From: Poseidonia sp.
GTDB lineage: Archaea; Thermoplasmatota; Poseidoniia; Poseidoniales; Poseidoniaceae
Reading direction: 5' to 3'
DNA: 64,000 nucleotides
NCBI GenBank assembly: GCA_030829545.1
Contig: JAURAI010000004.1
Coordinates: 63,433 to 127,432, forward strand
The notes beneath the pieces are model-generated. The model was not told the DNA's origin and did no database searches. It saw only the letters and a program-made list of their open reading frames with translations. Positions within the stretch are counted from its first letter, which is position 1, and each line of letters begins with the position of its first letter. This document shows positions 21,420 to 58,160 of the stretch, one piece after another. The translations under genes and the position numbers were made by a program.

Positions 21420-21569
21420 TCACTCTGCGTTGAGACGCTTGGTGCCGTGGCGGCGTAGCTTCATGAAGATACGAGATCCGCATCCTTTGCAACTGATTCC
21501 GTTTCGCTCACGGTGGAATGATTCGAGGCTACCGCAGTCAGCGCATTTGTAATCGACGAGTTCAACCAT
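21420..21569 (-). CDS. rpoP: DNA-directed RNA polymerase subunit P (Rpo12/RPABC4)
   Basis: 49-aa zinc ribbon MVELVDYKCADCG...SCKGCGSRIFMKLRRHG, matching the archaeal RpoP pattern YKCxxC...CxxCGxRIxxKxR. The start is set at ATG 21569. Confidence 0.7.
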   Translation of the reverse strand: MVELVDYKCADCGSLESFHRERNGISCKGCGSRIFMKLRRHGTKRLNAE

Positions 21570-21616
21570 ATGTATCTCTCCGTGCCACGCGACCGTGCAT
21601 CCCGTTTTGAACCTGT

Positions 21617-21829
21617 TCATTGCGAAGAACGCCGTAATAAGGCATCAAAGGTTGCGGCAGAAAGCACGACAACTTCTCCATCTGAAAAAAGTTCGATGAT
21701 CTTCATCACAAGTTCTTTCTCCGTACGTTCGTGGAACGTTATCAATTCATGAGGAGCGTAACCTCCCTCAAGATTCGAAATGAACACGTCCTCTTCTTGA
21801 GGTGTCCAATGAGGGGCTGTCGGTGGCAT
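21617..21829 (-). CDS. Small hypothetical protein (70 aa), translationally coupled to the di-Ubl gene
   Basis: Its ATG overlaps the upstream stop (TGATG at 21827-21831). The N-terminal WTPQEEDVFISNLEGGY has a weak Myb/SANT-like flavour. No confident family. Confidence 0.45.
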   Translation of the reverse strand: MPPTAPHWTPQEEDVFISNLEGGYAPHELITFHERTEKELVMKIIELFSDGEVVVLSAATFDALLRRSSQ

Positions 21830-22263
21830 CAGCAGTACAGGCCGCCAACGAGTCCTGGCATCATGCGGATTCGGCTGCCTTCTTCGAGGTTCATGTCGGC
21901 AATGTCAGCTGCGCTGACAAGTTGGTCGTTCACGAACACCCAAGCGCTGTTGTCGCTGGTTGCCTTGGAGGCAATTTCTGCTTGCGTCATGACCACTTCG
22001 CTGTGGCCGGTGCTGTCAGCGGTTTGCACAACAAAGGTTGGGGCGTCGTTGCCGCCAACGAGTCCTGGCATCATGCGGATTCGGCTGCCTTCTTCGAGGT
22101 TCATGTCGGCAATGTCAGCTGCGCTGACAAGTTGGTCGTTCACGAACACCCAAGCGCTGTTGTCGCTGGTTGCCTTGGAGGCAATTTCATCTTGGTTCAT
22201 CTGCACAACTGAGTGTCCAGATTGGTCTGCTACTTCTACGTTAAACAATGTTTTCTTATCCAT
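21829..22263 (-). CDS. Tandem (head-to-tail) ubiquitin-like beta-grasp protein, ThiS/MoaD/SAMP-type, each unit ending in GG; C-terminal cap LYC
   Basis: Two units of about 70 aa both end ...SAWVFVNDQLVSAADIADMNLEEGSRIRMMPGLVGG. The start is ATG 22263 (MDKKTLF). A TATA-like TTTATAT lies 36-42 nt upstream. Confidence 0.7.
   Translation of the reverse strand: MDKKTLFNVEVADQSGHSVVQMNQDEIASKATSDNSAWVFVNDQLVSAADIADMNLEEGSRIRMMPGLVGGNDAPTFVVQTADSTGHSEVVMTQAEIASKATSDNSAWVFVNDQLVSAADIADMNLEEGSRIRMMPGLVGGLYC
21841..21979. repeat. Copy 1 of a 139-bp perfect direct repeat (period 210 bp) inside the di-Ubl gene
   Basis: Identical by eye to 22051-22189 (gccgccaacgagtcctggcatcatgcgg...ggaggcaatttc). The flanks diverge immediately on one side and gradually on the other. 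Confidence 0.9.
22051..22189. repeat. Copy 2 of the 139-bp perfect direct repeat
   Basis: Identical to 21841-21979. It encodes the C-terminal 46 codons of the first Ubl unit. Confidence 0.9.
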
Positions 22264-22298
22264 GTTATTCACTTCTGCAAGGCTTACAAGCCCAGTCC

Positions 22299-22305
22299 AT
22301 ATAAA
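22299..22305 (-). promoter_or_regulatory. Candidate archaeal TATA box for the di-Ubl operon
   Basis: TTTATAT on the minus strand, 36-42 nt upstream of ATG 22263. It is the only AT-rich box in the 22264-22410 gap. Confidence 0.3.
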
Positions 22306-22410
22306 CAATGCAAACACCCTGAACCGGTTGGATTCGGGAAGAAAAATTGTTCATCAGCACGGGCACACTCACCTTGGGAAAGTGAGAGTGTGTTGAGGTC
22401 TTTTAAAGAA

Positions 22411-23835
22411 TCAAATTTTCAGGTCGGCTTGACGAGTTAGAAGATGGATTTGCATGCTATGCTCAAGCATGGCGGCGTTGGCCCAGGCTTGGTCGAAATC
22501 CGCGCCAACGGCATAGGCACCATTACCACGAACAACAACGCAACGCATACCGCCTTGTTGGAGTGCTTCTGCAACATGTCGAAGGTACTCTTCGGGTTGT
22601 TCAGTATCGGGGTCGACGATGATAATTTTCCCAATGTGCTGTTTCCCCATGTCGTCAATCGGCGTTACGATGATGAGATCCTTTTCGCAACTCGCCGCAG
22701 TTGTATGAACGCCGTGCATGTGGATAACGGCGGCAGGGCCGCCAGTGACCATGGCCACCGAAGCAAGGACAACTTCAAGGACGTGCCAGTCTGAAGGCGC
22801 ACCTCGAGGCGAGGCCCCTCCAAAATGACCAGCACAGAGGCTTCGCTCATTCATGCGAGGGAGGGGGGTCATGTGGCGGCTTGCAATCATAATTCCTGGT
22901 TGTTCAGGATGCACCATGGCAACGCTGCCCATGGTAGCGCGCACGAGATGCTCCCGGTCCAATTGACGGCCAATTCGAACGAAATCACCAACAACGTAGG
23001 GGGGTACAACGATGTTTTCTTGCACCATCGGAGGCATCGGAGGCTCTTCCATTTGCTCAATCACTTCAGTTGCCCCAACAACAGATTGGCGCAGTCGTGC
23101 GTTTTCCATGTGCAAACGTTCCAATTCCGCTTCCTTTTGTGCAAGGACTTCCTCTGCAGACGGGAGGCCTTCTGCTGAATCTTCTTCGGGCTCTGACTCA
23201 GAAGCGATCTCGGGAACGGTTTCGGGCTCGTCGAGGACTTCAGGCACTGGCTCCACTACAGAAGCTGGTTCGGGGGCTGGCTCAGAGTCAGTCGGAGAGG
23301 TGGGTTCTGCTTCAACCACTGCTTCAGGTGCTGCTTCAGAAACTGGAACTTCTGGTTCTTCCACTGCAGGAGGCGCCTCGTCAACCGGCGTAAGGGCGGC
23401 CTCTGTCGGGACTTGGTCGGCTACTTCTTCGGATGGTTCCGATTCTGGCGGACCGGATGGTGGGCCTGATGGTGGGCCTGATGGTGGGCCTGATGGTGGG
23501 CCTGATGGTGGGCCTGATGGTGGACCCGAGGGTGGGCCTGATGGAGGACCTGAAGACGGACCAGATGGAGGTCCCGTTGGTGGACCTGAGGGTGGTCCGG
23601 AAGGGGTAGGTGGAGTTACTTCTTCTGTTGCTCCGTCAGCAATGGACTCGGAAGGCGGGGCGGTTTCTTCTCCAGTTTCTTGAGCTTCATCGACCTCTGC
23701 TGCCGGTTTTTCCAGAACTTCAATGTCCCCAAAGGCGCCGCCAAGCATGTTGTCGAGCTGTGCATTTTCTGCCTCTTCACGTGCAATTTCGGCTGATGTT
23801 TTTGGTTTCGCCATGGTGGCACCCATTTCACCCAC
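22411..23835 (-). CDS. Class II aldolase/adducin-fold domain protein with a long disordered N-terminus carrying (PSGP)n repeats and a short coiled coil
   Basis: The C-terminal about 200 aa have PSDWHVLEVV, AVIHMHGVHTTAAS and VVVRGNGAYAVGADFDQAWANAAMLEHS, which fit the FucA/MtnB/adducin-head fold. The N-terminal about 270 aa are P/E/S/G-rich. Confidence 0.7.
   Translation of the reverse strand: MGEMGATMAKPKTSAEIAREEAENAQLDNMLGGAFGDIEVLEKPAAEVDEAQETGEETAPPSESIADGATEEVTPPTPSGPPSGPPTGPPSGPSSGPPSGPPSGPPSGPPSGPPSGPPSGPPSGPPSGPPESEPSEEVADQVPTEAALTPVDEAPPAVEEPEVPVSEAAPEAVVEAEPTSPTDSEPAPEPASVVEPVPEVLDEPETVPEIASESEPEEDSAEGLPSAEEVLAQKEAELERLHMENARLRQSVVGATEVIEQMEEPPMPPMVQENIVVPPYVVGDFVRIGRQLDREHLVRATMGSVAMVHPEQPGIMIASRHMTPLPRMNERSLCAGHFGGASPRGAPSDWHVLEVVLASVAMVTGGPAAVIHMHGVHTTAASCEKDLIIVTPIDDMGKQHIGKIIIVDPDTEQPEEYLRHVAEALQQGGMRCVVVRGNGAYAVGADFDQAWANAAMLEHSMQIHLLTRQADLKI
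23447..23602. repeat. 13 tandem 12-bp units (consensus GGTGGGCCTGAT; five consecutive perfect copies at 23459-23518), coding for (PSGP)n on the minus strand
   Basis: Read directly from the sequence. The units are in frame within the CDS 22411-23835. Confidence 0.85.
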
Positions 23836-23958: not shown

Positions 23959-24882
23959 TTACTCATCTTCTTCGTTGATGTTAGGGGTGTTTTTTCCGAT
24001 TGATAAAGCAGGCAATAGGTACCACATGAACGGCAAAAGAAGGAGTGCGTTGAGGTTTTTTCCTAACTCAATCTCAAATGTAGACTCAAAGGCGATGAAT
24101 GAATTCGCATCTTTACTTCCGTTTGCGGGAACCTGTTGAGCGACCGAGGTCCGGTTGTTTGGCTCAACCAATCCCAGATCATAACCCGAAAAATCGGCCT
24201 CTAGTTGGACTCCCAACCAAATCAATGAGAAGTCCGAGGAGGCGTTGGTATGCACGAAGGAAACCGTCTCAATGTTTGCCCCCGGGGTGTTGGTAGCCGT
24301 AGAATCCTCTTCGTCATCGCCGCCACCGCTCAACTCCAACATGTAGCAGGCTGGGAAAACAACCGAAAACGCGACCAGCGTGCACAGGAAGGCCAACGAA
24401 CGAACGTGATGACGCCAGACAAAGGACGACAACATCAGCACCTCGCTAAGAACGAGAAAGACCAATCCGAATTTGATCGATTGTCGGCCAATGGAGAGCC
24501 ATGCTCGGTCTTCATCCCTTCCTTGCTCGTCTTCGGCCTCCGATTCATCACCGCTGCCTGACTCATCTGGAGGCGTCGTATCGTTCACTGGAACCGATGC
24601 GTCGCTGTCTCGTTCAAGCGCATAGAAGAAAAAAGCCGTAGCCTGTTTGATCTCTACGTCGATAATGGTTTGATCTTTATCGATTGCAATCAATGAGTGC
24701 GCCTCGGTTGGAGCGGGTTTGCCTTCGGTGTAGACACCTTCAGCTGTGGCCACCAGCCAAGCGGAGATGAACACGTGAATTGCCAAGAGGACGGTCACGG
24801 ACAAACGGATGATGCCAAAGGCACGGTGAGGAGATGGCCGTGGCAACACGACTGCCCCTCTCCGTTCTTCCTTTTGATTCAC
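23959..24882 (-). CDS. Hypothetical 4-TM membrane protein, translationally coupled to the upstream LDLa-like surface protein
   Basis: Its start overlaps the upstream stop by 4 nt. It has several hydrophobic helices and an acidic extracytoplasmic loop. No known motif. Confidence 0.6.
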   Translation of the reverse strand: MNQKEERRGAVVLPRPSPHRAFGIIRLSVTVLLAIHVFISAWLVATAEGVYTEGKPAPTEAHSLIAIDKDQTIIDVEIKQATAFFFYALERDSDASVPVNDTTPPDESGSGDESEAEDEQGRDEDRAWLSIGRQSIKFGLVFLVLSEVLMLSSFVWRHHVRSLAFLCTLVAFSVVFPACYMLELSGGGDDEEDSTATNTPGANIETVSFVHTNASSDFSLIWLGVQLEADFSGYDLGLVEPNNRTSVAQQVPANGSKDANSFIAFESTFEIELGKNLNALLLLPFMWYLLPALSIGKNTPNINEEDE

Positions 24883-27800
24883 TCGTTCTCGCTTCGTCGG
24901 TTACCTGCAACAGCGGCAAGGCCGATGAGTGCGATGACTGTGAGTGGAGATACAAAGGGCAGAAGACCTGCGTCTTCGGCAACTTCCTCAGCGGTTGGAG
25001 GCGTGTCCTCACCGTCATCGGTGGTTTCGTCTCCCAGACCAAGGTCGGACGTGTCGGCACCAGCGGCTTCGAGGTCATCGGCCAGTTCGGTAAGGTCGTG
25101 ATTTTCCACATCAACGATGTCTTCGAGGTCATCAAATTCAGCCATCGCCTCCTGGGCTTCCTGTGCGGGAACACCGGTGATGTAGCGGATGCTGGCGAAG
25201 GTCATGGGCAGGTCCTGGCTGTAGCCGGTCGTTTCCGGTCCAGCGATGACGTAGCCGTTGCCGTCCTCATCCCAAGCGTACACGCCAACACCAACGATGG
25301 TGGCGTGCTCGTTGCTCCAAAGAGGCGCCCACATGCCGTCGGCGTAGGGGAAGACGGGCACTTCGTAGTTCTCGTCAAGTTCTTGGAAGGTCATCTCAAG
25401 GTTGCTGCCGAAGTTCTCCAGCACGTTGCTGAGGCCAGAATCGGCCAATGCGCCGACAATCTTTTCCATGCGCTCGCTGACTTCGGGGCCGTCTTCAACG
25501 GTCATGCAGTCTTCGTAGGCGTCAAAGGGCTCTGTCTCGCCGTTCTCTACCAATTCAACGGAGAGACAGTATTCGCCCTCACCAGCAATGTCAACCATGT
25601 TCTCGGCGTAGACCTCGGACTCATCGCTGAAAGCAACGCTGCCCTGGTCAACAACCGCGCCATCGGCATCGGAAACGGCCCAATGCATCGTGATGTCGTC
25701 GTATTCACCGCTCCAGGTGCCTGCACCCGCCGTGACACGGAGGGTGTTGTCACCCTCGTTGTTCATGTTGCTGTCCGAGTCTCGGATTTCTGGTCCAGTC
25801 CATGTCGAGTCGCAATTTTCAACAGCGGAGACCAGCAATGTGCCGTCGGGAGCAGCGATGCTTCCACCGGCACACATCGTGTTCTCACCGTATTCCATAT
25901 CGGCTGGTACCTCGGTACCGACCTGAATGTAGCCCGAATCAACGCTAAAGGACACGTCGCAGTGATAGGCAGCGCAGAGCAGAAGGTCATCGCCGGAAGC
26001 GATCACACCGCCCTCGCCGTCATTCATGTAGACGTCCATCAGGAAGTAGATGCCCTCGCCTTCGTCCGAGCCGTCAGCACAGTCTTCGGTGCCGTCGTTC
26101 ACGAGATCAAAGGAAACGGTCGACCAGTCTTCGCAATAGAAGTCATCACTCTCGGCGGCATTGTATTCGTCGCTGCCGTCATCGCACTGCGCAGTACCGT
26201 CGTTGACCCACTGCCAGGGCACGGCGCCGTTGTAATCGGCGCAGTTGTACCAGTCGCCTTCGTTGTCCAAGGGTTCATCGGAAGCGTCAGCGCAGTCCGC
26301 CGTGCCGTCGTTAACGAGTTCAAAGGAAATCTCGGAACCATCCAAGCAGACATAGGTGCTGGTGAGACCGTTGTCGTACTCATCCGAGCCGTCATCGCAG
26401 TCGTCATAGCCGTTGTTGACATCGCCAACTGGCAACTCCATGTAGCCATCCCATTCGCTGTAACATTCAATGGTTGCATCGGATTCAAGACCGAGGCTGG
26501 TAGCATCTACACGGCCGTTGAAGGCGTAGTGTTCCTCGCCGGTATTCCAATCTTGAGTGGTACCGCCCAGCAGGTAGAGGTCGTCTTCGTCCGAACCGTC
26601 CATGCAATCTTCAACACCGTCATTGACGTTCCGAGATTCAATCATCTCACCGCTGTCGCACATGAACCAGTTATCGCTACCGTCGTACTCCTCCATGTCG
26701 CCATCGTCGTCAATGCCAAACCAGTCTTCGATGAGTTCACCCACCGAGTCTTCGAGTTCGGCCTCAAAGTCTTCAGTCACCGCTTCGCCAAAGGATTCGC
26801 TGGCGTGAAGCAAGACATTGCCCATCATGATGAACATGACAGGGTTGCCGGGCGGGCATGTATCACAGGCCGTGACATCGAGCGTGTTACCGTCTCCAAG
26901 GTTGACCTCGAGTGGTTCGTCGGTGCGCATGCTGAACGAGACATCGTCCATGTTGGCCTCGCCTTCGTAGTCGCCTTCGCTGGTGAGTTCGTCGCTAATG
27001 CTGATGTCAAACTGACCTGCATCGAAGCCAAACTCTTCCATGGGTAGGCCCGTCAGGTAGACGTTGTAGTCAGCCGAGCCGATGTAGGAGCCGTCGATCA
27101 TGCCGCACATGTCGTGGACCTCGGCATCGCCCCAACCATCGTCAACACCCACGGTGTCGCCTTCCTCAACGCATTCCCAAACGGTTCGGTCGTTGGAGGC
27201 TGCGGTGACGTAGATGGGGCTGGGGTTGCCAAGTCGCCATTCGGCTTGAGAAGCAATGGAGTAGCTGAAGTCCATGCCGGTGTCGAAGTCAACGTTGAGC
27301 TCCACGCCGTCACCCTCGAGGGCGATGTCGATGCCGAGGTTCATGTCGTTGTCAACAGTCATGTCAATGTCCATGTCTGCGCCGATGAGTTGGGACTGGT
27401 CGTTGAGGTATTCGGTGTAAAGCATGTCAACGGTCAGGACGTTCTCTGCTTCGGCGATGACATCGATGTCAAAGCCGGTGGGCTCGCTGCCGAAGGTGGT
27501 CTCGGACCAGTCGGTCATGATGACGGCGTTGGACAACAGGCCGTGGCGAAGCACTACGTCGCTGGTGCGGCTCCATACCTGAACGTCGTTGCCGTCCAAG
27601 TCCTGGATGGTTTGAGGAGTGATGTCCTCGGTTTGGTGGACGTAAACATTGGATGCGCCCGTGGTCAACTGGCCAAGGTCGAGGTTGAACCCTGCGTCAT
27701 CGGCGTCCGCCATGATTTCGGTGAACAATGTTTGGATGTCCAAGCCAGTTACGTTTTGCAGGTCGCTGTCAAGGCTTGACCAGTCGTATTCGACCCCGTA

Positions 27801-27914
27801 ATAGTATTCAGTGGCTTGTGCGGGTTGGGCTTGAACCGTCGTCATGGGCGAAAGTGCCATGAGCATCAACAAAGTCACAAGCAGGCCGGAAAGGGTGCGT
27901 TTGGTAACGGACAT
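24879..27914 (-). CDS. Large secreted acidic surface protein with five LDL-receptor-class-A-like Ca-binding modules and a C-terminal anchor
   Basis: Signal peptide is MSVTKRTLSGLLVTLLMLMALSPMTTVQA. Five repeats fit the form C-x(12-19)-[VN]NDG-x2-DC-xD[GA]SDE. The C-terminus is LLPFVSPLTVIALIGLAAVAGNRRSENE. ATG 27914 is preferred over TTG 27917. A TATA-like TTAATAT lies 25-31 nt upstream. Confidence 0.8.
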   Translation of the reverse strand: MSVTKRTLSGLLVTLLMLMALSPMTTVQAQPAQATEYYYGVEYDWSSLDSDLQNVTGLDIQTLFTEIMADADDAGFNLDLGQLTTGASNVYVHQTEDITPQTIQDLDGNDVQVWSRTSDVVLRHGLLSNAVIMTDWSETTFGSEPTGFDIDVIAEAENVLTVDMLYTEYLNDQSQLIGADMDIDMTVDNDMNLGIDIALEGDGVELNVDFDTGMDFSYSIASQAEWRLGNPSPIYVTAASNDRTVWECVEEGDTVGVDDGWGDAEVHDMCGMIDGSYIGSADYNVYLTGLPMEEFGFDAGQFDISISDELTSEGDYEGEANMDDVSFSMRTDEPLEVNLGDGNTLDVTACDTCPPGNPVMFIMMGNVLLHASESFGEAVTEDFEAELEDSVGELIEDWFGIDDDGDMEEYDGSDNWFMCDSGEMIESRNVNDGVEDCMDGSDEDDLYLLGGTTQDWNTGEEHYAFNGRVDATSLGLESDATIECYSEWDGYMELPVGDVNNGYDDCDDGSDEYDNGLTSTYVCLDGSEISFELVNDGTADCADASDEPLDNEGDWYNCADYNGAVPWQWVNDGTAQCDDGSDEYNAAESDDFYCEDWSTVSFDLVNDGTEDCADGSDEGEGIYFLMDVYMNDGEGGVIASGDDLLLCAAYHCDVSFSVDSGYIQVGTEVPADMEYGENTMCAGGSIAAPDGTLLVSAVENCDSTWTGPEIRDSDSNMNNEGDNTLRVTAGAGTWSGEYDDITMHWAVSDADGAVVDQGSVAFSDESEVYAENMVDIAGEGEYCLSVELVENGETEPFDAYEDCMTVEDGPEVSERMEKIVGALADSGLSNVLENFGSNLEMTFQELDENYEVPVFPYADGMWAPLWSNEHATIVGVGVYAWDEDGNGYVIAGPETTGYSQDLPMTFASIRYITGVPAQEAQEAMAEFDDLEDIVDVENHDLTELADDLEAAGADTSDLGLGDETTDDGEDTPPTAEEVAEDAGLLPFVSPLTVIALIGLAAVAGNRRSENE

Positions 27915-27992
27915 CAACCCTTACGGCTAATTTACTCCATATTAAGGCTATGGGGGCGGTTTTCCCCCTTCCCCATCGGGGAATTCAAGGAC

Positions 27993-52031: not shown

Positions 52032-52152
52032 ACGGTAAGCTGCGCCTCTTTTCCTTGGCTTTGCATGGAAAATTCTCCTCAAATTATCAAGGTGAACCTT
52101 GAAGGATGATGGCGAACTCGCCAATATGTCCGCAAGTCGGAAGGTGAATGAA

Positions 52153-53157
52153 ATGAGTGACCGCCTTTATGTTGGAATTGACCTAGGAACCTACCAATCT
52201 ACCATCGCTTCAAGCGCTGATAAGATGCATACAATCGAAACCGTCGTTGGCCGTCCAAAGGACGCCGTGGCCCGTAATTTCCTCGGCCGAGACGTGTTGT
52301 TCGGCGATGATGCATTGAAGAACAAGCTCGCTTGCAACCTTTACCGCCCTATGGCTGCTGGTGTTACTCAAGATGACGAGGCAAATTTGGCTGCTGCCAA
52401 GGCTTTCGTTTCCCACCTCCTTGAAACCGTTGACCCGGAAGAATACGACGAGGTTCTGGGAGTTATTTGCTCGCCAAGCCACGTTTCCTTCACTGACAAA
52501 TCCAATCTTGTCGCCACCCTACGTGGTCAAGTGAACGCCATCATGGTCGTGACTGAACCCTTCGCTACCGCCTATGGAATCGATGAAATTGCTGGTTCAA
52601 TCGTTGTTGACATCGGCGCCGGTACAACCGACATCGCACGAGTCTACGGAACCTTCCCTACCGATGAAGACCAAGTCACCATCACCGAAGCCGGCGACTG
52701 GCTTGACCTCCAACTCATGGAGCTCATCAAGAAGAAGTACACCGGTGCACAAGTGACCAAAGACATGGTCCGTAAGTGGAAAGAGGAGTCGTCCTACGTT
52801 GGCGGCGACACTCGCGAAGTAACTGTCAAGCTATCCGTTGAAGGCAAGCAGCAAGTCGTTGACATCGGCGATTTGATTCAAGAGGCATGTGGATTGATTA
52901 TTCCAAAAATCGGAAACGCCATCAAGAAGATCGTCGCTGGCGCTGACCCCGAATACCAACCAATTCTTCGCAACAACATCATCCTCTCTGGTGGCGGCTC
53001 CCTGATTGAAGGAAGTGCTGAGCGAATCGCAAGCGAGATTGCCGACATCGGTGATGTCAAGGTTTGGTGCGTCGAAGACCCCATCAACTCAGTCGCCATT
53101 GGTGCACTCAAACTCGCCAGTGATATGCCTGATGACATGTACACCTCAATCAATTGA
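52153..53157 (+). CDS. Actin-superfamily filament ATPase, MamK/MreB-like
   Basis: Contains phosphate-1 (LYVGIDLGTYQS), VVGRPKD (MamK-like), phosphate-2 (IVVDIGAGTTDIA) and the adenosine motif (IILSGGGSLIEG). A GGAAGGTGA SD-like element precedes ATG 52153. An alternative start is at 52126. Confidence 0.8.
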   Translation: MSDRLYVGIDLGTYQSTIASSADKMHTIETVVGRPKDAVARNFLGRDVLFGDDALKNKLACNLYRPMAAGVTQDDEANLAAAKAFVSHLLETVDPEEYDEVLGVICSPSHVSFTDKSNLVATLRGQVNAIMVVTEPFATAYGIDEIAGSIVVDIGAGTTDIARVYGTFPTDEDQVTITEAGDWLDLQLMELIKKKYTGAQVTKDMVRKWKEESSYVGGDTREVTVKLSVEGKQQVVDIGDLIQEACGLIIPKIGNAIKKIVAGADPEYQPILRNNIILSGGGSLIEGSAERIASEIADIGDVKVWCVEDPINSVAIGALKLASDMPDDMYTSIN

Positions 53158-55431: not shown

Positions 55432-57213
55432 ATGAGCGAAGCGGGACCCTTCAAACGCCTTCTTTCGTACATGCGCCCCCACCGAGGAACCATTCGGTTG
55501 GCTTCCTTTTGTTCCATCCTCAACAAAATTTGGGATCTCGCCCCTCCGTTGCTCATTGGTTTAGCAGTTGATGTGGTCGTTCTTCGAGAAGATTCTCTGC
55601 TTGCCTCTATGGGGGTGGAAGACCCATGGCATCAACTCGTCTTGCTCTCCGTCCTTACCTTCTTGATTTGGGGGCTTGAGTCTCTGTTCGAGTATTTCTA
55701 TGGGGTTCTGTGGAGAAATCTTGCTCAAACGGTTCAGCATGAATTACGTCTTGACACGTTTGACCACGTTCAACAACAAGGCATGGCCTGGTTTGATGAA
55801 CGCCAGAAAGGAGATATCCTCGCAATCCTCAATGACGATATCAATCAACTTGAACGGTTTTTGGATAAAGGAGCGAATGATCTGTTACAAGTCACCACCA
55901 CAGTCATTGTGGTCGGCGCAGTTTTCTTGCTGATTTCTTGGCAAGTTGCTTTATTTGCAGTCTTACCCATTCCAATCATCGTGTGGGGATCATTTCGCTA
56001 TCAGCGTAGTTTAGAGCCCCGTTACGCTCGTGTTCGAGATGCAGCTGGGCGAATGAATGCCCTCTTGGAAAATGATTTGTCGGGGATGTCCACGGTTCAA
56101 TCCTTTACTGCCGAAGCCCATGAACTCGCTCGGGTTGAAGTCCTTAGCGAAGACTACAGAGCCGCAAATCGTGAAGCGATTCGCCTATCTGCAGCATTTA
56201 CACCGCTGATCCGGATGGCTATCCTTGTCGGATTTACCGCCACCCTTCTGCTCGGAGGTTGGCTAACACTTGAGGGCACCCTGGCAATAGGAGCCTACTC
56301 CGTTCTCGTTTTCATGACGCAGCGTTTGCTCTGGCCGCTCACTCGCCTCGGTGAAACCTTTGACCTCTACCAGCGGGCTATGGCGTCGTCAACACGAGTG
56401 CTTGATGTTCTTGGCTCACCCATCGAAATCATTCAAGGAGAGGTCCATCCGTCGCGAGATGATGTAATGGCAAGTGACCTCGTCTTGAACGACATAGCAT
56501 TTGGCTATCCGGGCCGAGAACCCATTTTTCACGCTTTCAACCTCACTTTTGAGGCTGGAAAAACGACGGGGGTCGTTGGTTCGACGGGGGCTGGAAAAAC
56601 AACGCTTGTCAGGTTGTTGTTACGATTTGCTGAACCGAACAGCGGCACAATCTCATGGGCTGGGGAAAATTTGCCGGCGTGGCGCCTTGAGGCGCTTCGC
56701 TCTTCAATCGCCCTGGTCGACCAACACATCACACTCTTTCCAACAAGCATCATGGAAAACATACGCTATGGGCGCCCCGATGCAGAAGATGATGAAGTGG
56801 TAGAAGCTGCAAAAATTGCTGAAGCCTTTGAGTTTGTTGAATCGCTTCCCGACCAGTGGAGCACCATGGTGGGCGAAGGAGGGCATCGCCTCTCTGGTGG
56901 ACAGCGTCAACGAGTCGCTATCGCGCGCGCAGTGCTAAAGGATGCTCCATTGCTGATTCTCGATGAGGCGACATCTGCTGTAGACAATGAAACGGAGGCG
57001 GCGCTGCAACGCTCGATTGAACGTATTTCCAAAGGTCGGACGACCATTATCATAGCACATCGCCTCTCAACCATTCGAAGAGCCGATCGCATTCTTGTAC
57101 TGGATGACGGAGAGATTGCTGAAGAAGGCGTGCATGAAGATCTGTTGAAACGTGATGAGATATACGCCAGATTATGGTCGGTTCAAACCGGTTTGACCGT
57201 AGAAAAAGAGTAA
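55432..57213 (+). CDS. ABC exporter, fused permease plus ATPase (MsbA/ABCB-type)
   Basis: Six N-terminal TM helices. Contains Walker A (GSTGAGKTT), signature (LSGGQRQRVAIARA), Walker B (LLILDEATSAVD) and an H-loop (IIIAHRLS). Confidence 0.9.
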   Translation: MSEAGPFKRLLSYMRPHRGTIRLASFCSILNKIWDLAPPLLIGLAVDVVVLREDSLLASMGVEDPWHQLVLLSVLTFLIWGLESLFEYFYGVLWRNLAQTVQHELRLDTFDHVQQQGMAWFDERQKGDILAILNDDINQLERFLDKGANDLLQVTTTVIVVGAVFLLISWQVALFAVLPIPIIVWGSFRYQRSLEPRYARVRDAAGRMNALLENDLSGMSTVQSFTAEAHELARVEVLSEDYRAANREAIRLSAAFTPLIRMAILVGFTATLLLGGWLTLEGTLAIGAYSVLVFMTQRLLWPLTRLGETFDLYQRAMASSTRVLDVLGSPIEIIQGEVHPSRDDVMASDLVLNDIAFGYPGREPIFHAFNLTFEAGKTTGVVGSTGAGKTTLVRLLLRFAEPNSGTISWAGENLPAWRLEALRSSIALVDQHITLFPTSIMENIRYGRPDAEDDEVVEAAKIAEAFEFVESLPDQWSTMVGEGGHRLSGGQRQRVAIARAVLKDAPLLILDEATSAVDNETEAALQRSIERISKGRTTIIIAHRLSTIRRADRILVLDDGEIAEEGVHEDLLKRDEIYARLWSVQTGLTVEKE

Positions 57214-57249
57214 GGAATCACCCGTTTTTTTGTCACAAAAAAACATTTC

Positions 57250-57257
57250 TTTATATA
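57250..57257 (+). promoter_or_regulatory. Candidate TATA box for the rhodopsin gene
   Basis: TTTATATA lies 31-38 nt upstream of ATG 57288 in an AT-rich gap, preceded by an A/T-rich BRE-like stretch. This implies a very short leader. Confidence 0.35.
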
Positions 57258-57287
57258 CACTTTAGAAAGCAACAACGATTGAGAACC

Positions 57288-58160
57288 ATGATAACTGAAA
57301 AATTCTCCAAAACAACCAGCCTGCTTTTAATCGCCACAATTGCCCTCGCAATGGCCGGAACGGCCAGTGCTGCGGAAGTTGTTGATCCGTCGAAGGAGTA
57401 CGCAGGTGACGCCCTTGGGCTCATCACCTTCTTCCTGTTCTTCGTTGGCTACATCTCCATGGGTGCGGCCTTCGTCTTCTTCATGAGTGAGCGAAGCAAT
57501 GTAGCACCCGAATACCGTACCACAATGACCATCTCGGCCTTGATTGTAGGTATTGCTGCGTTCCACTACTATTACATGCGGACTGTTTACTCAGAACTCG
57601 GTTCTGTTTCGGTCGAATACCGCTACATGGACTGGATCATTACCGTTCCATTGATGGCCCTCAAGTTCCCTTCCCTGGTCGGAAAGGACGCTATTACCGA
57701 TGAGAAGTTCCTCGGTATGGGCTTCACTGGCATCTGTTTCACCGGTGCCCTCATCATGATTGGATTTGGATACCTCGGTGAATCCGGAGCTCTCGGGGAA
57801 GTCATGGGCGCATCCGCTGGCGGATGGGCTGGTCTTATCCTTGGTGGCGTTGGTTGGGCCATGATTATCGTCGCAACCGGAACTCCTTGGTCATCAGGAA
57901 AGGGTGTCGACAACAGCAAGATTGCTCCTGAACTCATCTGGAGTGCCAACGCTCTCCGCTGGTTCATCGTCGTTGGCTGGATCATCTACCCGATTGGTTA
58001 CTTGTTCAGCCCTGGTGCAGAACTTGGCCTTGGTGATGGAAACCAAGAAGTGCTCGCTATCTTCTACAACATTGCAGACATCATCAACAAGATCGGTTTC
58101 GGTATTGTTGCTTGGATGGGTGCTAAGAAGGCTACCGAAGCCCTTGCTGCAGCTGAGTGA
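57288..58160 (+). CDS. Proteorhodopsin-type microbial rhodopsin (light-driven pump), motif D-T-K, Met at the spectral-tuning site
   Basis: RYMDWIITVPLMALK aligns to RYIDWLLTVPLLICE of green proteorhodopsin. Also present are AFHYYYMR (the His75 equivalent), WIIYPIGY and NIADIINKIGFG (Schiff-base Lys, codon 58089-58091). The N-terminus is signal-like. Confidence 0.9.
   Translation: MITEKFSKTTSLLLIATIALAMAGTASAAEVVDPSKEYAGDALGLITFFLFFVGYISMGAAFVFFMSERSNVAPEYRTTMTISALIVGIAAFHYYYMRTVYSELGSVSVEYRYMDWIITVPLMALKFPSLVGKDAITDEKFLGMGFTGICFTGALIMIGFGYLGESGALGEVMGASAGGWAGLILGGVGWAMIIVATGTPWSSGKGVDNSKIAPELIWSANALRWFIVVGWIIYPIGYLFSPGAELGLGDGNQEVLAIFYNIADIINKIGFGIVAWMGAKKATEALAAAE

What the first reader, a model, noticed from the sequence alone, without database searches (positions are those of the whole stretch)
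21829..22263. Polyubiquitin-like precursor in an archaeon: two head-to-tail beta-grasp (ThiS/SAMP-type) units, each ending in Gly-Gly, plus a 3-residue cap
The 144-aa product consists of two units of about 70 aa. Unit 1 (MDKKTLFNVEV...) ends SAWVFVNDQLVSAADIADMNLEEGSRIRMMPGLVGG and runs directly into unit 2 (NDAPTFVVQT...). Unit 2 ends with the same 46 residues and GG, followed only by LYC and the stop. The unit size, the V-x-V-N...L-x-E-G-x-x-I-x-h-h-P-x-h-x-G-G pattern and the terminal diglycine are hallmarks of ThiS/MoaD/SAMP/ubiquitin modifiers. A linear fusion of GG-terminated units with a short C-terminal cap is the architecture of eukaryotic polyubiquitin precursors. It would need an endoprotease, for example a JAMM/MPN+ enzyme, to release conjugation-competent units. 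To my knowledge the characterised archaeal SAMPs are single units. No E1-like, E2-like or JAMM gene is visible in this window, so any partners are encoded elsewhere.
Basis: partly seen in the sequence, partly recalled or inferred. Interest (0 to 1): 0.8.

Follow-up and report, generated by a model that had tools for sequence, protein, structure and literature searches.

The report
Polyubiquitin-like precursor gene in marine archaea
A Marine Group II archaeon carries a gene that strings two ubiquitin-like units head to tail, each ending in Gly-Gly, as eukaryotic polyubiquitin genes do. Related archaea encode a matching activating enzyme and protease, so this is a testable and apparently undescribed archaeal tagging or sulfur-carrier system.

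Summary
Window 21829-22263 (- strand) encodes 144 aa: two 70-71-aa units, each ending PGLVGG, then a 3-residue cap (LYC). The window is from a Poseidoniales (Marine Group II) archaeon.

- **Conservation:** All 120 homologues read in full have this architecture, with two or three units. One genome locus has four.
- **Fold:** The predicted fold is beta-grasp. Sequence similarity to ThiS, SAMP and ubiquitin stays below threshold.
- **Partners:** The window has no E1 or JAMM gene. However, other members of this Ubl family are fused to, or lie directly upstream of, a small ThiF-type E1. That E1 is always followed by a JAMM-motif protease (65 of 65 loci).
- **Links to this lineage:** A small Myb-like ORF translationally coupled to the poly-Ubl gene is homologous to a domain fused to that E1 elsewhere. 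E1-JAMM cassettes lacking their own Ubl gene match the window in tetranucleotide composition (r = 0.97).

Best reading: this is a precursor cut after each Gly-Gly by the JAMM protease, and the released units are activated by the E1. Cleavage, activation, presence of the cassette in this genome, and the downstream use (protein tagging or sulfur transfer) are inferred. I found no published description.

The parts
21829..22263 (-). Poly-Ubl gene: 144 aa, made of two beta-grasp units, a 3-aa cap and the stop codon
   Evidence: ORF and translation. 160 homologues at E <= 1e-3. It is the only Ubl-family hit in the window (E 1.3e-74).
22051..22263 (-). Unit 1 (residues 1-71), ending PGLVGG
   Evidence: Translation. 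Predicted topology bb-a-bb-a-b. pLDDT is below 50 only at the junction, residues 69-72.
21841..22050 (-). Unit 2 (residues 72-141), beginning NDAPTF and ending PGLVGG
   Evidence: Translation. Alignment-based model with pLDDT 80. Foldseek hits are almost entirely Ubl beta-grasp proteins or domains.
21832..21840 (-). C-terminal cap Leu-Tyr-Cys after the last Gly-Gly
   Evidence: Caps in homologues are 1-4 aa and variable: RAC 68, SVC 11, LYC 4, N 3, GLHF 3 and others.
21841..21990 (.). Direct DNA repeat, copy A (3' 150 nt of unit 2)
   Evidence: the repeat finder family D1, reference copy, period 210.
22051..22200 (.). Direct DNA repeat, copy B (3' 150 nt of unit 1), 97% identical to copy A
   Evidence: The units are each other's nearest relatives (0.97), closer than to any unit in another genome.
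22299..22305 (-). Candidate archaeal TATA box TTTATAT, 36-42 nt upstream of the ATG
   Evidence: TT[TC]ATAT is invariant in 8 aligned orthologous upstream regions.
22269..22274 (-). Candidate Shine-Dalgarno AAGTGA (GGTGA-like), 6-11 nt upstream of the ATG
   Evidence: Conserved as A/G-GTGA in 8 genomes.
21617..21829 (-). 70-aa Myb/SANT-like ORF. Its ATG overlaps the poly-Ubl stop codon (TGATG).
   Evidence: Found in 17 of 19 poly-Ubl loci checked; not found in the low-GC L005, and disrupted by a frameshift in L012. 13 of these copies are aligned in A4. Weak Myb_DNA-binding matches, best E 4.9e-4. Homologous to the C-terminal extension of the E1 proteins P0345/P0344 (hhalign probability 95%, E 4e-8).
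21420..21620 (-). RpoP (RNA polymerase subunit P/Rpb12 zinc ribbon), overlapping the end of the 70-aa ORF
   Evidence: PF03604, 29.4 bits against a cut-off of 24. It lies downstream of the poly-Ubl gene in all 19 loci checked.

Best explanation
The gene encodes a precursor made of ThiS/SAMP-like beta-grasp units joined head to tail. There are two units here, and three or four in relatives. Each unit ends in Pro-Gly-Leu-Val-Gly-Gly, and the last one is capped by 1-4 extra residues.

Proposed mechanism:
1. The precursor is transcribed from its own TATA promoter, together with a small Myb-like protein and RpoP.
2. A dedicated JAMM/MPN+ metalloprotease cuts after every Gly-Gly. This removes the cap and separates the units.
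3. The JAMM gene always sits directly downstream of a small (about 215 aa) ThiF-type E1. That E1 adenylates the exposed C-terminal glycine.
4. The activated unit is then attached to proteins, as SAMPs are, and/or converted to a thiocarboxylate sulfur carrier.

Shown here: the architecture; its strict conservation; the predicted fold; the genetic linkage of this Ubl family to the E1 and JAMM through fusions and adjacency; and homology between the operon's Myb-like ORF and a domain fused to the E1.

Inferred: cleavage, adenylation, presence of the E1-JAMM cassette in this genome, and the final use.
For: **Architecture and conservation.**
- 81 two-unit and 38 three-unit homologues were read in full, and one four-unit gene was found (L020).
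- All 277 unit ends are PG[LI][VI]GG, while the linkers (QDAP, SDAP, STDP, LASEEP, NQDHEV and others) and the caps vary.
- In three-unit lineages the units are positionally orthologous and only 65-88% identical in DNA, yet GG stays invariant.
- In the window's lineage the units are homogenised (97%), as in polyubiquitin genes.

**Fold.**
- The topology is beta-grasp. The unit junction and the tail are the only segments with pLDDT below 50.
- Foldseek returns almost only Ubl proteins or domains. TtuB has TM 0.63. SAMP2 in complex with PfJAMM1 has TM 0.53 normalised to the query and 0.62 normalised to the target.
- ThiS is the most frequent weak Pfam match (9 of 47 units).

**E1 link.**
- P0135 and P0265 have two units ending in VGG fused to a ThiF domain. 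P0162 has one unit fused to ThiF. The ThiF score is 62 bits against a cut-off of 28.
- Stand-alone orthologues of this E1 are named from Poseidoniaceae/Poseidoniales MAGs.
- The E1 profile matches Uba1 (1.6e-11), MoeB (4.9e-8) and ThiF (7.7e-8).
- Among 80 metagenome E1 loci, a family Ubl lies just upstream in 48 of 69 evaluable loci.

**JAMM link.**
- The downstream gene is present in 65 of 65 evaluable loci and occupies the same reading frame as the E1 in 8 of them; two were read as E1-JAMM fusion proteins of 402 and 420 aa.
- E, HxH, S and D of the JAMM motif are invariant.
- All 16 PDB hits of its profile are JAMM deubiquitinases: AMSH-LP 0.003, and the Caldiarchaeum Rpn11-like protein 0.07.

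**Link to this locus.**
- The 70-aa ORF coupled to the poly-Ubl gene is homologous to the C-terminal domain of the E1 proteins P0345/P0344 (probability 95%).
- 21 E1-JAMM cassettes lack a Ubl gene of their own. Of the 11 long enough to test, six have the tetranucleotide signature of poly-Ubl lineages (r 0.93-0.97). L086 against the window gives r = 0.972. Cassettes of similar GC that carry their own Ubl gene give 0.64-0.81.

**Precedent.** HvJAMM1 cuts a linear SAMP1-MoaE fusion exactly after the GG and requires the GG (PMC4443979). CsRpn11 processes the Caldiarchaeum ubiquitin precursor (PMC6043591).
Against: - No significant sequence match to any curated Ubl family. Pfam gives nothing above threshold. 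NCBIfam gives ThiS at E 0.006 and SAMP1 at E 0.011. The unit profile against PDB sequences is not significant. All Foldseek E-values are at or above 0.014.
- The E1-JAMM cassette is not in the 64-kb window, nor within 10 kb of the gene in 28 related loci. Its presence in the same genome rests on composition and on a domain link, not on a sequenced genome.
- No E2- or E3-like gene was seen.
- The JAMM assignment rests on the motif and on sub-threshold matches.
- Tandem beta-grasp Ubls that work uncut exist, namely bacterial Bil/Bub Ubl2/Ubl3 and ISG15 (PMC11601603).
- Some distant family members have a decayed tail: P0124 ends its units in AG, and P0137, P0140 and P0144 have lost GG and carry other C-terminal domains.
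Confidence: 0.6

Rival explanations
1. Only the cap is removed. The protein is then used as one piece, as a two- to four-domain modifier or adaptor, like ISG15, FAT10 or bacterial Bub/Bil Ubl2/Ubl3. The internal Gly-Gly motifs would be retained because the units are copies of one another and the tail also serves as a linker.
For: Multi-beta-grasp Ubls that stay intact are documented in bacteria and eukaryotes (PMC11601603; PMC1779556). Recent homogenisation of units in the window's lineage could carry GG along passively.
Against: In lineages where the units have diverged to 65-75% DNA identity and the linkers differ in sequence and length, GG is still invariant at every internal junction: 277 of 277. 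The junction is predicted to be disordered, with no inter-unit packing. Family members fused N-terminally to the E1 itself must be cut at an internal GG to be activated at all. Single-unit members ending exactly in GG exist (P0164, P0171, P0203).
Confidence: 0.17
2. The units are released and activated as proposed, but they serve only as thiocarboxylate sulfur carriers in the ThiS/MoaD/TtuB/CysO/QbsE manner, for tRNA thiolation or cofactor or metabolite synthesis. They would not be protein tags.
For: ThiS is the nearest family by sequence, and JGI names the gene 'sulfur carrier protein ThiS'. TtuB is the best structural match by TM-score. No E2 or E3 was found. From my own knowledge, capped sulfur carriers trimmed by a JAMM are known, for example QbsE (GG-CF) trimmed by QbsD, and CysO with Mec+.
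Against: The E1 has no rhodanese domain and no MoeB-type CxxC zinc motifs. No sulfurtransferase, MoaE, ThiG or TtuA/NcsA gene is linked to either locus. A multi-copy precursor, an AAA+ ATPase next to some cassettes (L029, L119), and linkage to RpoP fit a stoichiometrically consumed tag better. Archaeal SAMPs do both jobs, so the two roles are not exclusive.
Confidence: 0.2
3. The tandem repeat is an assembly or gene-calling artefact, or a non-functional recent duplication.
For: About 139 nt are exactly identical between the two units of the window. Short-read assemblers can mis-count such repeats. Close relatives differ by one identical unit (L018 with two units against L019 with three).
Against: The same structure appears in 8 independent assemblies, in 21 MAG loci and in long polished contigs (L012). 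Diverged, positionally orthologous units are conserved across genomes. There is strong amino-acid conservation, with 13 invariant columns. The promoter and Shine-Dalgarno elements are conserved.
Confidence: 0.02

Closest known systems
Eukaryotic polyubiquitin precursors (UBI4, UBB, UBC)
   Same: Units are joined head to tail without a spacer. Each unit ends in Gly-Gly. A short variable C-terminal cap blocks the last unit (often Cys here, as in human UBB by my own knowledge). Unit number varies between genomes (2-4). Units are homogenised within a gene in some lineages.
   Different: The units are not ubiquitin: hhalign probability is 12%, and Pfam ubiquitin matches 1 of 47 units at E 0.11. In several lineages the units are heterogeneous and positionally orthologous. 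No E2 or E3 was found. The likely processing enzyme is a JAMM rather than a USP or UCH. Processing is not demonstrated.
Haloferax volcanii SAMP1/2/3 with UbaA (E1) and HvJAMM1
   Same: Archaeal beta-grasp modifiers ending in GG, used with one E1 and a JAMM and without an E2 or E3. HvJAMM1 cuts linear Ubl fusions precisely after GG (PMC4443979). SAMP3 and P. furiosus SAMP2 are among the structural matches.
   Different: SAMPs are single-unit genes ending directly in GG. The E1 here is a much shorter and divergent ThiF protein (about 215 aa; only its first ~110 residues align with known E1s). Sequence similarity to SAMP1 is below threshold (E 0.011 and 16 bits against a cut-off of 60).
Bacterial polyUbl proteins of 6e / Bub-Bil operons (Iyer et al. 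2006; Corbett lab preprint 2024)
   Same: Prokaryotic proteins with two or three tandem Ub-like beta-grasp domains, functionally tied to an E1 and a JAB peptidase, and described as 'reminiscent of eukaryotic poly-ubiquitin' (PMC1779556).
   Different: Those proteins sit inside operons with an E1-JAB fusion, an E2/RWD-like protein and a metal-binding protein. Ubl3 forms a packed homodimer and is treated as one modifier (PMC11601603). Here the gene lies apart from the enzymes, each unit keeps its own GG, and the junctions are predicted to be flexible.
Caldiarchaeum subterraneum pro-ubiquitin processed by CsRpn11
   Same: An archaeal Ubl made as a precursor with residues after GG that a JAMM (Rpn11-like) removes (PMC6043591). 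CsRpn11 (6fjv) is among the PDB hits of the JAMM profile found here.
   Different: It is a single ubiquitin unit inside a full E1/E2/RING operon and is a true ubiquitin homologue.
Capped sulfur carriers trimmed by a JAMM (QbsE/QbsD, CysO/Mec+)
   Same: A ThiS-like protein with extra residues after GG, plus a JAMM and an E1-like adenylase (my own knowledge, not tested here).
   Different: Those are single units. Their E1 carries a rhodanese domain, and they lie in biosynthetic gene clusters.

Membership tests
ThiS/MoaD/SAMP-type ubiquitin-like beta-grasp proteins | Beta-grasp fold of about 65-95 residues | tested here: met
   AlphaFold models have bb-a-bb-(a)-b topology, with pLDDT 71 for the single sequence and 80 with the alignment. 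Foldseek returns almost only Ubl beta-grasp proteins or domains, but at E >= 0.014 and TM 0.4-0.63. This is a prediction, not an experimental structure.
ThiS/MoaD/SAMP-type ubiquitin-like beta-grasp proteins | C-terminal Gly-Gly that can be exposed for adenylation | tested here: met
   All 277 unit ends in 120 homologues are PG[LI][VI]GG. Single-unit relatives end exactly in GG.
ThiS/MoaD/SAMP-type ubiquitin-like beta-grasp proteins | Significant match to a curated family model (PF02597 ThiS, TIGR01683, NF041918 SAMP1) | tested here: not met
   ThiS scores E 0.0056 and 17 bits against a cut-off of 37. SAMP1 scores E 0.011 and 16 bits against a cut-off of 60. PF02597 is matched weakly by 9 of 47 units, best E 0.0014. 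The window's own units match no Pfam family above threshold.
ThiS/MoaD/SAMP-type ubiquitin-like beta-grasp proteins | A cognate E1-like adenylating enzyme | tested here: inconclusive
   Met at family level: there are Ubl-ThiF fusions, and a family Ubl lies directly upstream of the E1 in 48 of 69 loci. For this genome there is only indirect evidence: the Myb-like domain link and composition (r = 0.972). The E1 is absent from the window.
ThiS/MoaD/SAMP-type ubiquitin-like beta-grasp proteins | Adenylation followed by thiocarboxylation or isopeptide conjugation | not testable with these tools
   Needs biochemistry or proteomics.
Polyubiquitin-type precursor | Spacer-less head-to-tail units, each ending in GG, with a terminal cap | tested here: met
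   Unit spacing is 70 aa in 145 of 157 junctions.
Polyubiquitin-type precursor | The units are ubiquitin (PF00240) homologues | tested here: not met
   hhalign against ubiquitin gives probability 12%. PF00240 matches 1 of 47 units at E 0.11. The phmmer E of 4e-15 against 9x ubiquitin is inflated by repeats; di-ubiquitin gives E of about 0.12.
Polyubiquitin-type precursor | Concerted evolution of the units | tested here: inconclusive
   Seen in the window, L008, L009, L016, L018, L019 and L023, where the nearest unit is in the same gene (0.85-0.97). Not seen in L010-12, L014, L015, L017, L020, L021, L024 and L025, where the units are positionally orthologous.
Polyubiquitin-type precursor | Endoproteolytic release of monomers | not testable with these tools
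   This is inferred from the family's JAMM partner and from Ubl-E1 fusions that require cutting.
Bacterial polyUbl (6e / Bub) systems | The gene lies in an operon with an E1-JAB protein, an E2/RWD-like protein and a metal-binding protein | tested here: not met
   The neighbours are an aldolase-II protein, the Myb-like ORF, RpoP and an RFC-like ATPase, in all loci examined. No E2-like gene was seen in any cassette.
E1-like (ThiF/MoeB/Uba) superfamily (partner enzyme, outside the window) | Rossmann-type adenylation domain matching PF00899 | tested here: met
   PF00899 scores 61-63 bits against a cut-off of 28. The profile matches PDB Uba1 at 1.6e-11, MccB at 4.7e-10, MoeB at 4.9e-8 and ThiF at 7.7e-8. 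GxGGIG and D-x-D-x-V-x3-N motifs are invariant.
JAMM/MPN+ metalloproteases (partner enzyme, outside the window) | Catalytic E ... HxH-x7-S-xx-D motif and a significant family match | tested here: inconclusive
   The motif residues E60, H98, H100, S108 and D111 are invariant in 12 diverse members. All 16 PDB hits are JAMM deubiquitinases, but the best E is 0.0032. Prok-JAB is matched by 9 of 12 members, best E 0.0017, below the cut-off. JGI labels some members 'proteasome lid subunit RPN8/RPN11'.

The most novel reading that the evidence does not exclude
Marine Group II archaea, among the most abundant archaea of the surface ocean, run a self-contained ubiquitin-like protein-tagging system whose modifier is made from a polyubiquitin-type multi-unit precursor gene. 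On this reading, that gene organisation (GG-ended units, a cap, variable unit number, concerted evolution) arose outside eukaryotes and independently of ubiquitin itself. The system would consist of the precursor, a minimal E1, a JAMM processing and deconjugating protease, a Myb-like E1 accessory and, in some lineages, an AAA+ unfoldase. The conserved coupling to RpoP hints at transcription-machinery targets.
Probability: 0.3. Interest if true: 0.85.

Novelty: new variant of a known kind. Interest (0 to 1): 0.74.

Why it matters
Making a modifier as a string of GG-ended copies is regarded as a hallmark of eukaryotic ubiquitin genes. Characterised archaeal modifiers (SAMPs, Urm1, Caldiarchaeum ubiquitin) are single units.

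A conserved, dynamically evolving poly-unit precursor in an uncultured but globally abundant archaeal order would show that this gene architecture evolves whenever a Ubl is needed in bulk. It would also add a fourth kind of archaeal Ubl system, with a minimal E1 and a dedicated JAMM.

All components are short soluble proteins that can be expressed and assayed in vitro, so the hypothesis can be tested directly without culturing the organism.

It also gives marine metaproteomics concrete diagnostic peptides: ...LMPGLVGG C-termini, QDAPTF... N-termini, and GG remnants on lysines.

Tried and rejected
- **Assembly artefact: rejected**.
- **True ubiquitin orthology: rejected.** The striking phmmer hit to polyubiquitin (E 4e-15) is an artefact of repeat against repeat. 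Per-domain E is about 2, and hhalign probability is 12%.
- **E1, E2 or JAMM in the window or beside the gene in relatives: none found**.
- **Viral or mobile origin of the E1 cassette or the Ubl.** I considered this because a paper reports ThiF genes as common in putative archaeal viruses (PMC8276007) and because a T7-like RNA polymerase lies nearby. Neither family occurs in 2.9 million IMG/VR contigs. The cassette also sits among housekeeping genes on a 1.03-Mb contig.
- **Proving co-occurrence in one genome: failed.** Cluster names gave no shared MAG. No flank overlap exists between E1 loci and poly-Ubl loci. The samples carrying the window's protein differ from those carrying the best-matching cassette. 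Only tetranucleotide similarity could be offered.
- **Aldolase-II neighbour as a functional partner: rejected.** It is inverted in the low-GC lineage (L005), so this is probably synteny only.
- **Homology between the C-terminal domains fused behind some Ubls (P0130, P0176) and the Zn-ribbon proteins next to the L029 cassette: too weak to use**.
- **Literature searches** for a description of this gene in Marine Group II/Poseidoniales, or of tandem archaeal Ubls, found nothing.
Full report
**1. The observation**

- Residues 1-71 and 72-141 are two homologous units. Both end ...EIASKATSDNSAWVFVNDQLVSAADIADMNLEEGSRIRMMPGLVGG. Leu-Tyr-Cys and the stop codon follow.
- At DNA level the 3' 150 nt of each unit form a direct repeat with a 210-nt period and 97% identity. 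About 139 nt are exactly identical.
- The 5' 63 nt of the units are only 46% identical.
- The window comes from a Marine Group II (Poseidoniales) archaeon. It encodes topoisomerase VI, GGGP synthase, a rhodopsin, RpoP and other typical genes. All 21 genome hits of the protein are Poseidoniales/Poseidoniaceae/Poseidonia MAGs.

**2. Is it real and conserved?**

A search of 5.8 billion proteins gave 160 homologues. In the 120 read in full:
- 81 have two units and 38 have three units.
- All 277 unit ends read PG[LI][VI]GG.
- Spacing is 70 aa in 145 of 157 junctions.

One MAG (L020) has four units. The window's own variant was assembled identically in 8 separate metagenomes. A three-unit gene lies on a pilon-polished 408-kb contig (L012).

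Two evolutionary regimes coexist:
- In L010-12, L014, L015, L017, L020, L021, L024 and L025, the units are positionally orthologous across genomes. They are only 65-88% identical within a gene, so this is an old, stable array with heterogeneous units.
- In the window, L008, L009, L016, L018, L019 and L023, each unit's nearest relative is its neighbour in the same gene (85-97%). This points to recent duplication or gene conversion.

GG is invariant in both regimes, although the linkers differ in sequence and length. That argues for selection on each Gly-Gly and not passive copying.

**3. Fold and family**

- No Pfam family reaches threshold. The nearest by sequence are ThiS (NCBIfam E 0.006; PF02597 matched weakly by 9 of 47 units) and SAMP1 (E 0.011).
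- The eye-catching phmmer hit to polyubiquitin (E 4e-15) is in register but is inflated by repeat-on-repeat scoring. Di-ubiquitin gives E of about 0.12, the unit profile against PDB is not significant, and hhalign against ubiquitin gives 12% probability.
- AlphaFold gives the beta-grasp order of elements for both units. Confidence drops below 50 only at the unit junction (residues 69-72) and the tail (139-144), so the model is two beads on a flexible string. With a 47-unit alignment the unit model reaches pLDDT 80.
- Nearly all of the 50 best Foldseek matches are ubiquitin-like proteins or domains: SUMO, UBL domains, Mth1743, SAMP3, ThiS, P. furiosus SAMP2 bound to its JAMM, TtuB, Urm1. None is statistically strong (E >= 0.014, TM up to 0.63).
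- Thirteen columns are invariant in the unit alignment. They include a G-H pair in the first hairpin, W-x-F-V, R, and P-G-x-x-G-G.

I conclude that this is a divergent beta-grasp Ubl family closest to ThiS/SAMP. It is not ubiquitin.

**4. Genomic setting**

- The gene has its own conserved signals: TT[TC]ATAT at -42 to -36 and a GGTGA-like Shine-Dalgarno at -11 to -6, both conserved in eight genomes.
- Its stop codon overlaps (TGATG) the start of a 70-aa ORF. That ORF in turn overlaps the start of RpoP. An RFC-like AAA+ gene follows.
- RpoP lies downstream of the poly-Ubl gene in all 19 loci examined. The 70-aa ORF is found in 17 of the 19; it is not found in the low-GC L005 and is disrupted by a frameshift in L012.
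- No E1, E2 or JAMM gene lies in the window or in any of the 28 related loci.

**5. The partners**

An exhaustive profile search with one unit against 1.84 billion cluster representatives found only 144 relatives. The family is small. It contains:
- single-unit proteins ending exactly in GG or with 1-2 extra residues;
- fusions in which one unit (P0162) or two units (P0135, P0265), each ending in VGG, run straight into a ThiF domain that scores 62 bits against a cut-off of 28.

The E1 domain, used as a query, recovered 93 proteins. Most are stand-alone 211-225-aa ThiF proteins, and two are named from Poseidoniaceae and Poseidoniales MAGs. A profile of this E1 matches the adenylation domains of Uba1, MccB, the NEDD8 E1, MoeB, ThiF and Uba4.

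The gene directly downstream of the E1 encodes a 160-208-aa protein.
- Its invariant residues are E, H-x-H, S and D in JAMM spacing.
- Its profile hits only JAMM deubiquitinases in the PDB: AMSH-LP 0.003, STAMBP 0.006, Sst2 0.02, Caldiarchaeum Rpn11-like 0.07.
- Nine of 12 members weakly match Prok-JAB.
- JGI labels some members RPN8/RPN11.

A metagenome scan with the E1 profile found 356 loci, of which 80 were fetched. Among those:
- the JAMM gene follows the E1 in 65 of 65 evaluable loci, and shares its reading frame in 8; two were read as E1-JAMM fusion proteins of 402 and 420 aa;
- a family Ubl precedes the E1 in 48 of 69 evaluable loci, fused in 5 and with two units or genes in 7.

Every possible fusion of Ubl, E1 and JAMM occurs. 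This is classical evidence that the three work together. Ubl-E1 fusions can only be activated after a cut at an internal GG. The cassette is chromosomal: it sits between photolyase and carotenoid genes on a 1.03-Mb contig. Neither the E1 nor the Ubl family occurs in IMG/VR viral contigs.

**6. Does the window's lineage have the cassette?**

This could not be read directly. Two indirect links exist.

First, the 70-aa ORF coupled to the poly-Ubl gene is a Myb/SANT-like domain (weak Pfam matches). It is homologous to the C-terminal extension of the 295-aa E1 proteins P0345/P0344 (profile-profile probability 95%, E 4e-8). So a protein encoded with the poly-Ubl gene is a domain of the E1 elsewhere.

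Second, 21 E1-JAMM cassettes have no Ubl gene of their own. They have the form GT4-like gene, E1, JAMM, then a gene of about 80 aa.
- Of the 11 long enough to test, six (L055, L058, L061, L062, L086 and, more weakly, L045) carry the tetranucleotide signature of poly-Ubl lineages, with r of 0.90-0.97.
- L086 against the window gives r = 0.972. That is as high as the window against its own syntenic relatives, although L086 and the window share no homologous sequence.
- L062 against L026 gives 0.967. L061 against L001 and the window gives 0.948 and 0.947.
- Cassettes of similar GC that do carry a Ubl gene give only 0.64-0.81, so they belong to other taxa.

This complementary pattern is what one expects if the poly-Ubl gene supplies the Ubl for Ubl-less cassettes. 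It remains an inference.

**7. Mechanism proposed and alternatives**

Most likely (about 0.6):
1. The precursor is cut after each GG by the JAMM.
2. The 7.5-kDa units are adenylated by the small E1.
3. They are then used as SAMP-like protein tags and/or sulfur carriers.

Precedents:
- HvJAMM1 cuts a linear SAMP1-MoaE fusion exactly after GG and needs the GG (PMC4443979).
- CsRpn11 trims the Caldiarchaeum ubiquitin precursor (PMC6043591).

Alternatives:
- The protein is used uncut after cap removal, like ISG15 or bacterial Ubl3 (0.17).
- The units are sulfur carriers only (0.2; this is compatible with processing).
- Artefact (0.02).

What would decide among these is listed under next steps.

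**8. Relation to what is known, and novelty**

- Tandem Ub-like domains have been described in bacterial 6e/Bub operons and were called 'reminiscent of poly-ubiquitin' (PMC1779556; PMC11601603). Those lie in E1-JAB/E2-like operons and act as packed multi-domain units.
- The archaeal Ubl survey of 2010 lists fusions to MoaE, Cgi121 and E1, but no tandem Ubl. It notes a trend for Ubl genes to sit beside information-processing genes, which the RpoP linkage here echoes (PMC2948915).
- A survey of ubiquitin toolkits mentions only a UCH and RING proteins in one Marine Group II single-cell genome (PMC4327156).
- I found no description of this gene family, its E1-JAMM cassette or the Myb-like link.

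I therefore class it as a new variant of a known kind. The known kind is prokaryotic Ubl plus E1 plus JAMM systems. The new feature is a polyubiquitin-type multi-unit precursor, encoded apart from its enzymes, in an abundant uncultured archaeal order.

Noticed in passing
L029 2687-6676; L032 1477-4053; L119 3596-7260: T7-like single-subunit RNA polymerase genes (PF00940, E 4.7e-40 for L029) lie a few kb upstream of the Ubl-E1-JAMM(-AAA) cassette on low-GC Marine Group II-type contigs. One of these is a 1.03-Mb chromosomal contig, where the gene is split into three ORFs. This is unusual for archaea, and no match was found in IMG/VR for the neighbouring E1 or Ubl.
   Followed up: partly
window 21832-21840, and caps of homologues: 97 of 119 caps end in Cys (RAC, SVC, LAC, LYC, HAC and others), although the rest of the cap varies. 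A terminal Cys may have a role, for example in contacting the JAMM zinc, or it may be chance inheritance.
   Followed up: no
window 22360-22410 (- strand): A second TTTAAAA/TTTATAT box lies about 145 nt upstream of the Ubl ATG. It is followed by an inverted repeat (CACTCTCAC-N9-GTGAGTGTG), also present in L008 and L009. It sits just after the stop of the aldolase-II gene. It could be a terminator or a small RNA. Rfam found nothing there.
   Followed up: no
window 22411-23835 (-): A class II aldolase/adducin-domain protein (PF00596, E 4.7e-15) has a roughly 280-aa acidic N-terminal extension that contains about 11 PSGP repeats (12-nt tandem repeat at 23456-23595). Its position next to the Ubl gene is conserved, but the gene is inverted in the low-GC lineage.
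   Followed up: partly
L029 11637-13034; L119 10954-12408: A single-domain AAA+ ATPase (PF00004, E 2e-23) follows the Ubl-E1-JAMM-small-ORF cassette in the low-GC lineage. It is a possible unfoldase partner. It is absent from the Ubl-less cassettes.
   Followed up: no
L035 8767-9918; L042 8602-9951; L058 1296-2621; L086 2619-3908: A GT4-like glycosyltransferase gene regularly precedes the E1-JAMM cassette, and a conserved acidic ORF of about 80 aa follows the JAMM. Their roles are unknown.
   Followed up: no
P0130, P0176, P0180, P0194, P0147, P0148, P0156 (family members outside the window): Several family Ubls are fused after GG to uncharacterised C-terminal domains of 130-320 aa. One type shares a motif (P..D.LA.LV..L.ND) with two Zn-ribbon paralogues encoded next to the L029 cassette (pairwise E 9e-4). 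These could be targets or ligase-like partners.
   Followed up: partly
window 52099-53157; 57174-58160; 18-1337; 24879-27917: Other genes in the window: an actin/MreB-like protein, a rhodopsin, SelO (a protein adenylyltransferase), and a 1012-aa secreted acidic protein with LDL-receptor class A repeats.
   Followed up: no
window 21829-22317: JGI gene calls start this gene at an upstream GTG (162 aa, P0029). Conservation of the N-terminus, the TATA box and the Shine-Dalgarno element across genomes favours the ATG at 22263 (144 aa).
   Followed up: yes
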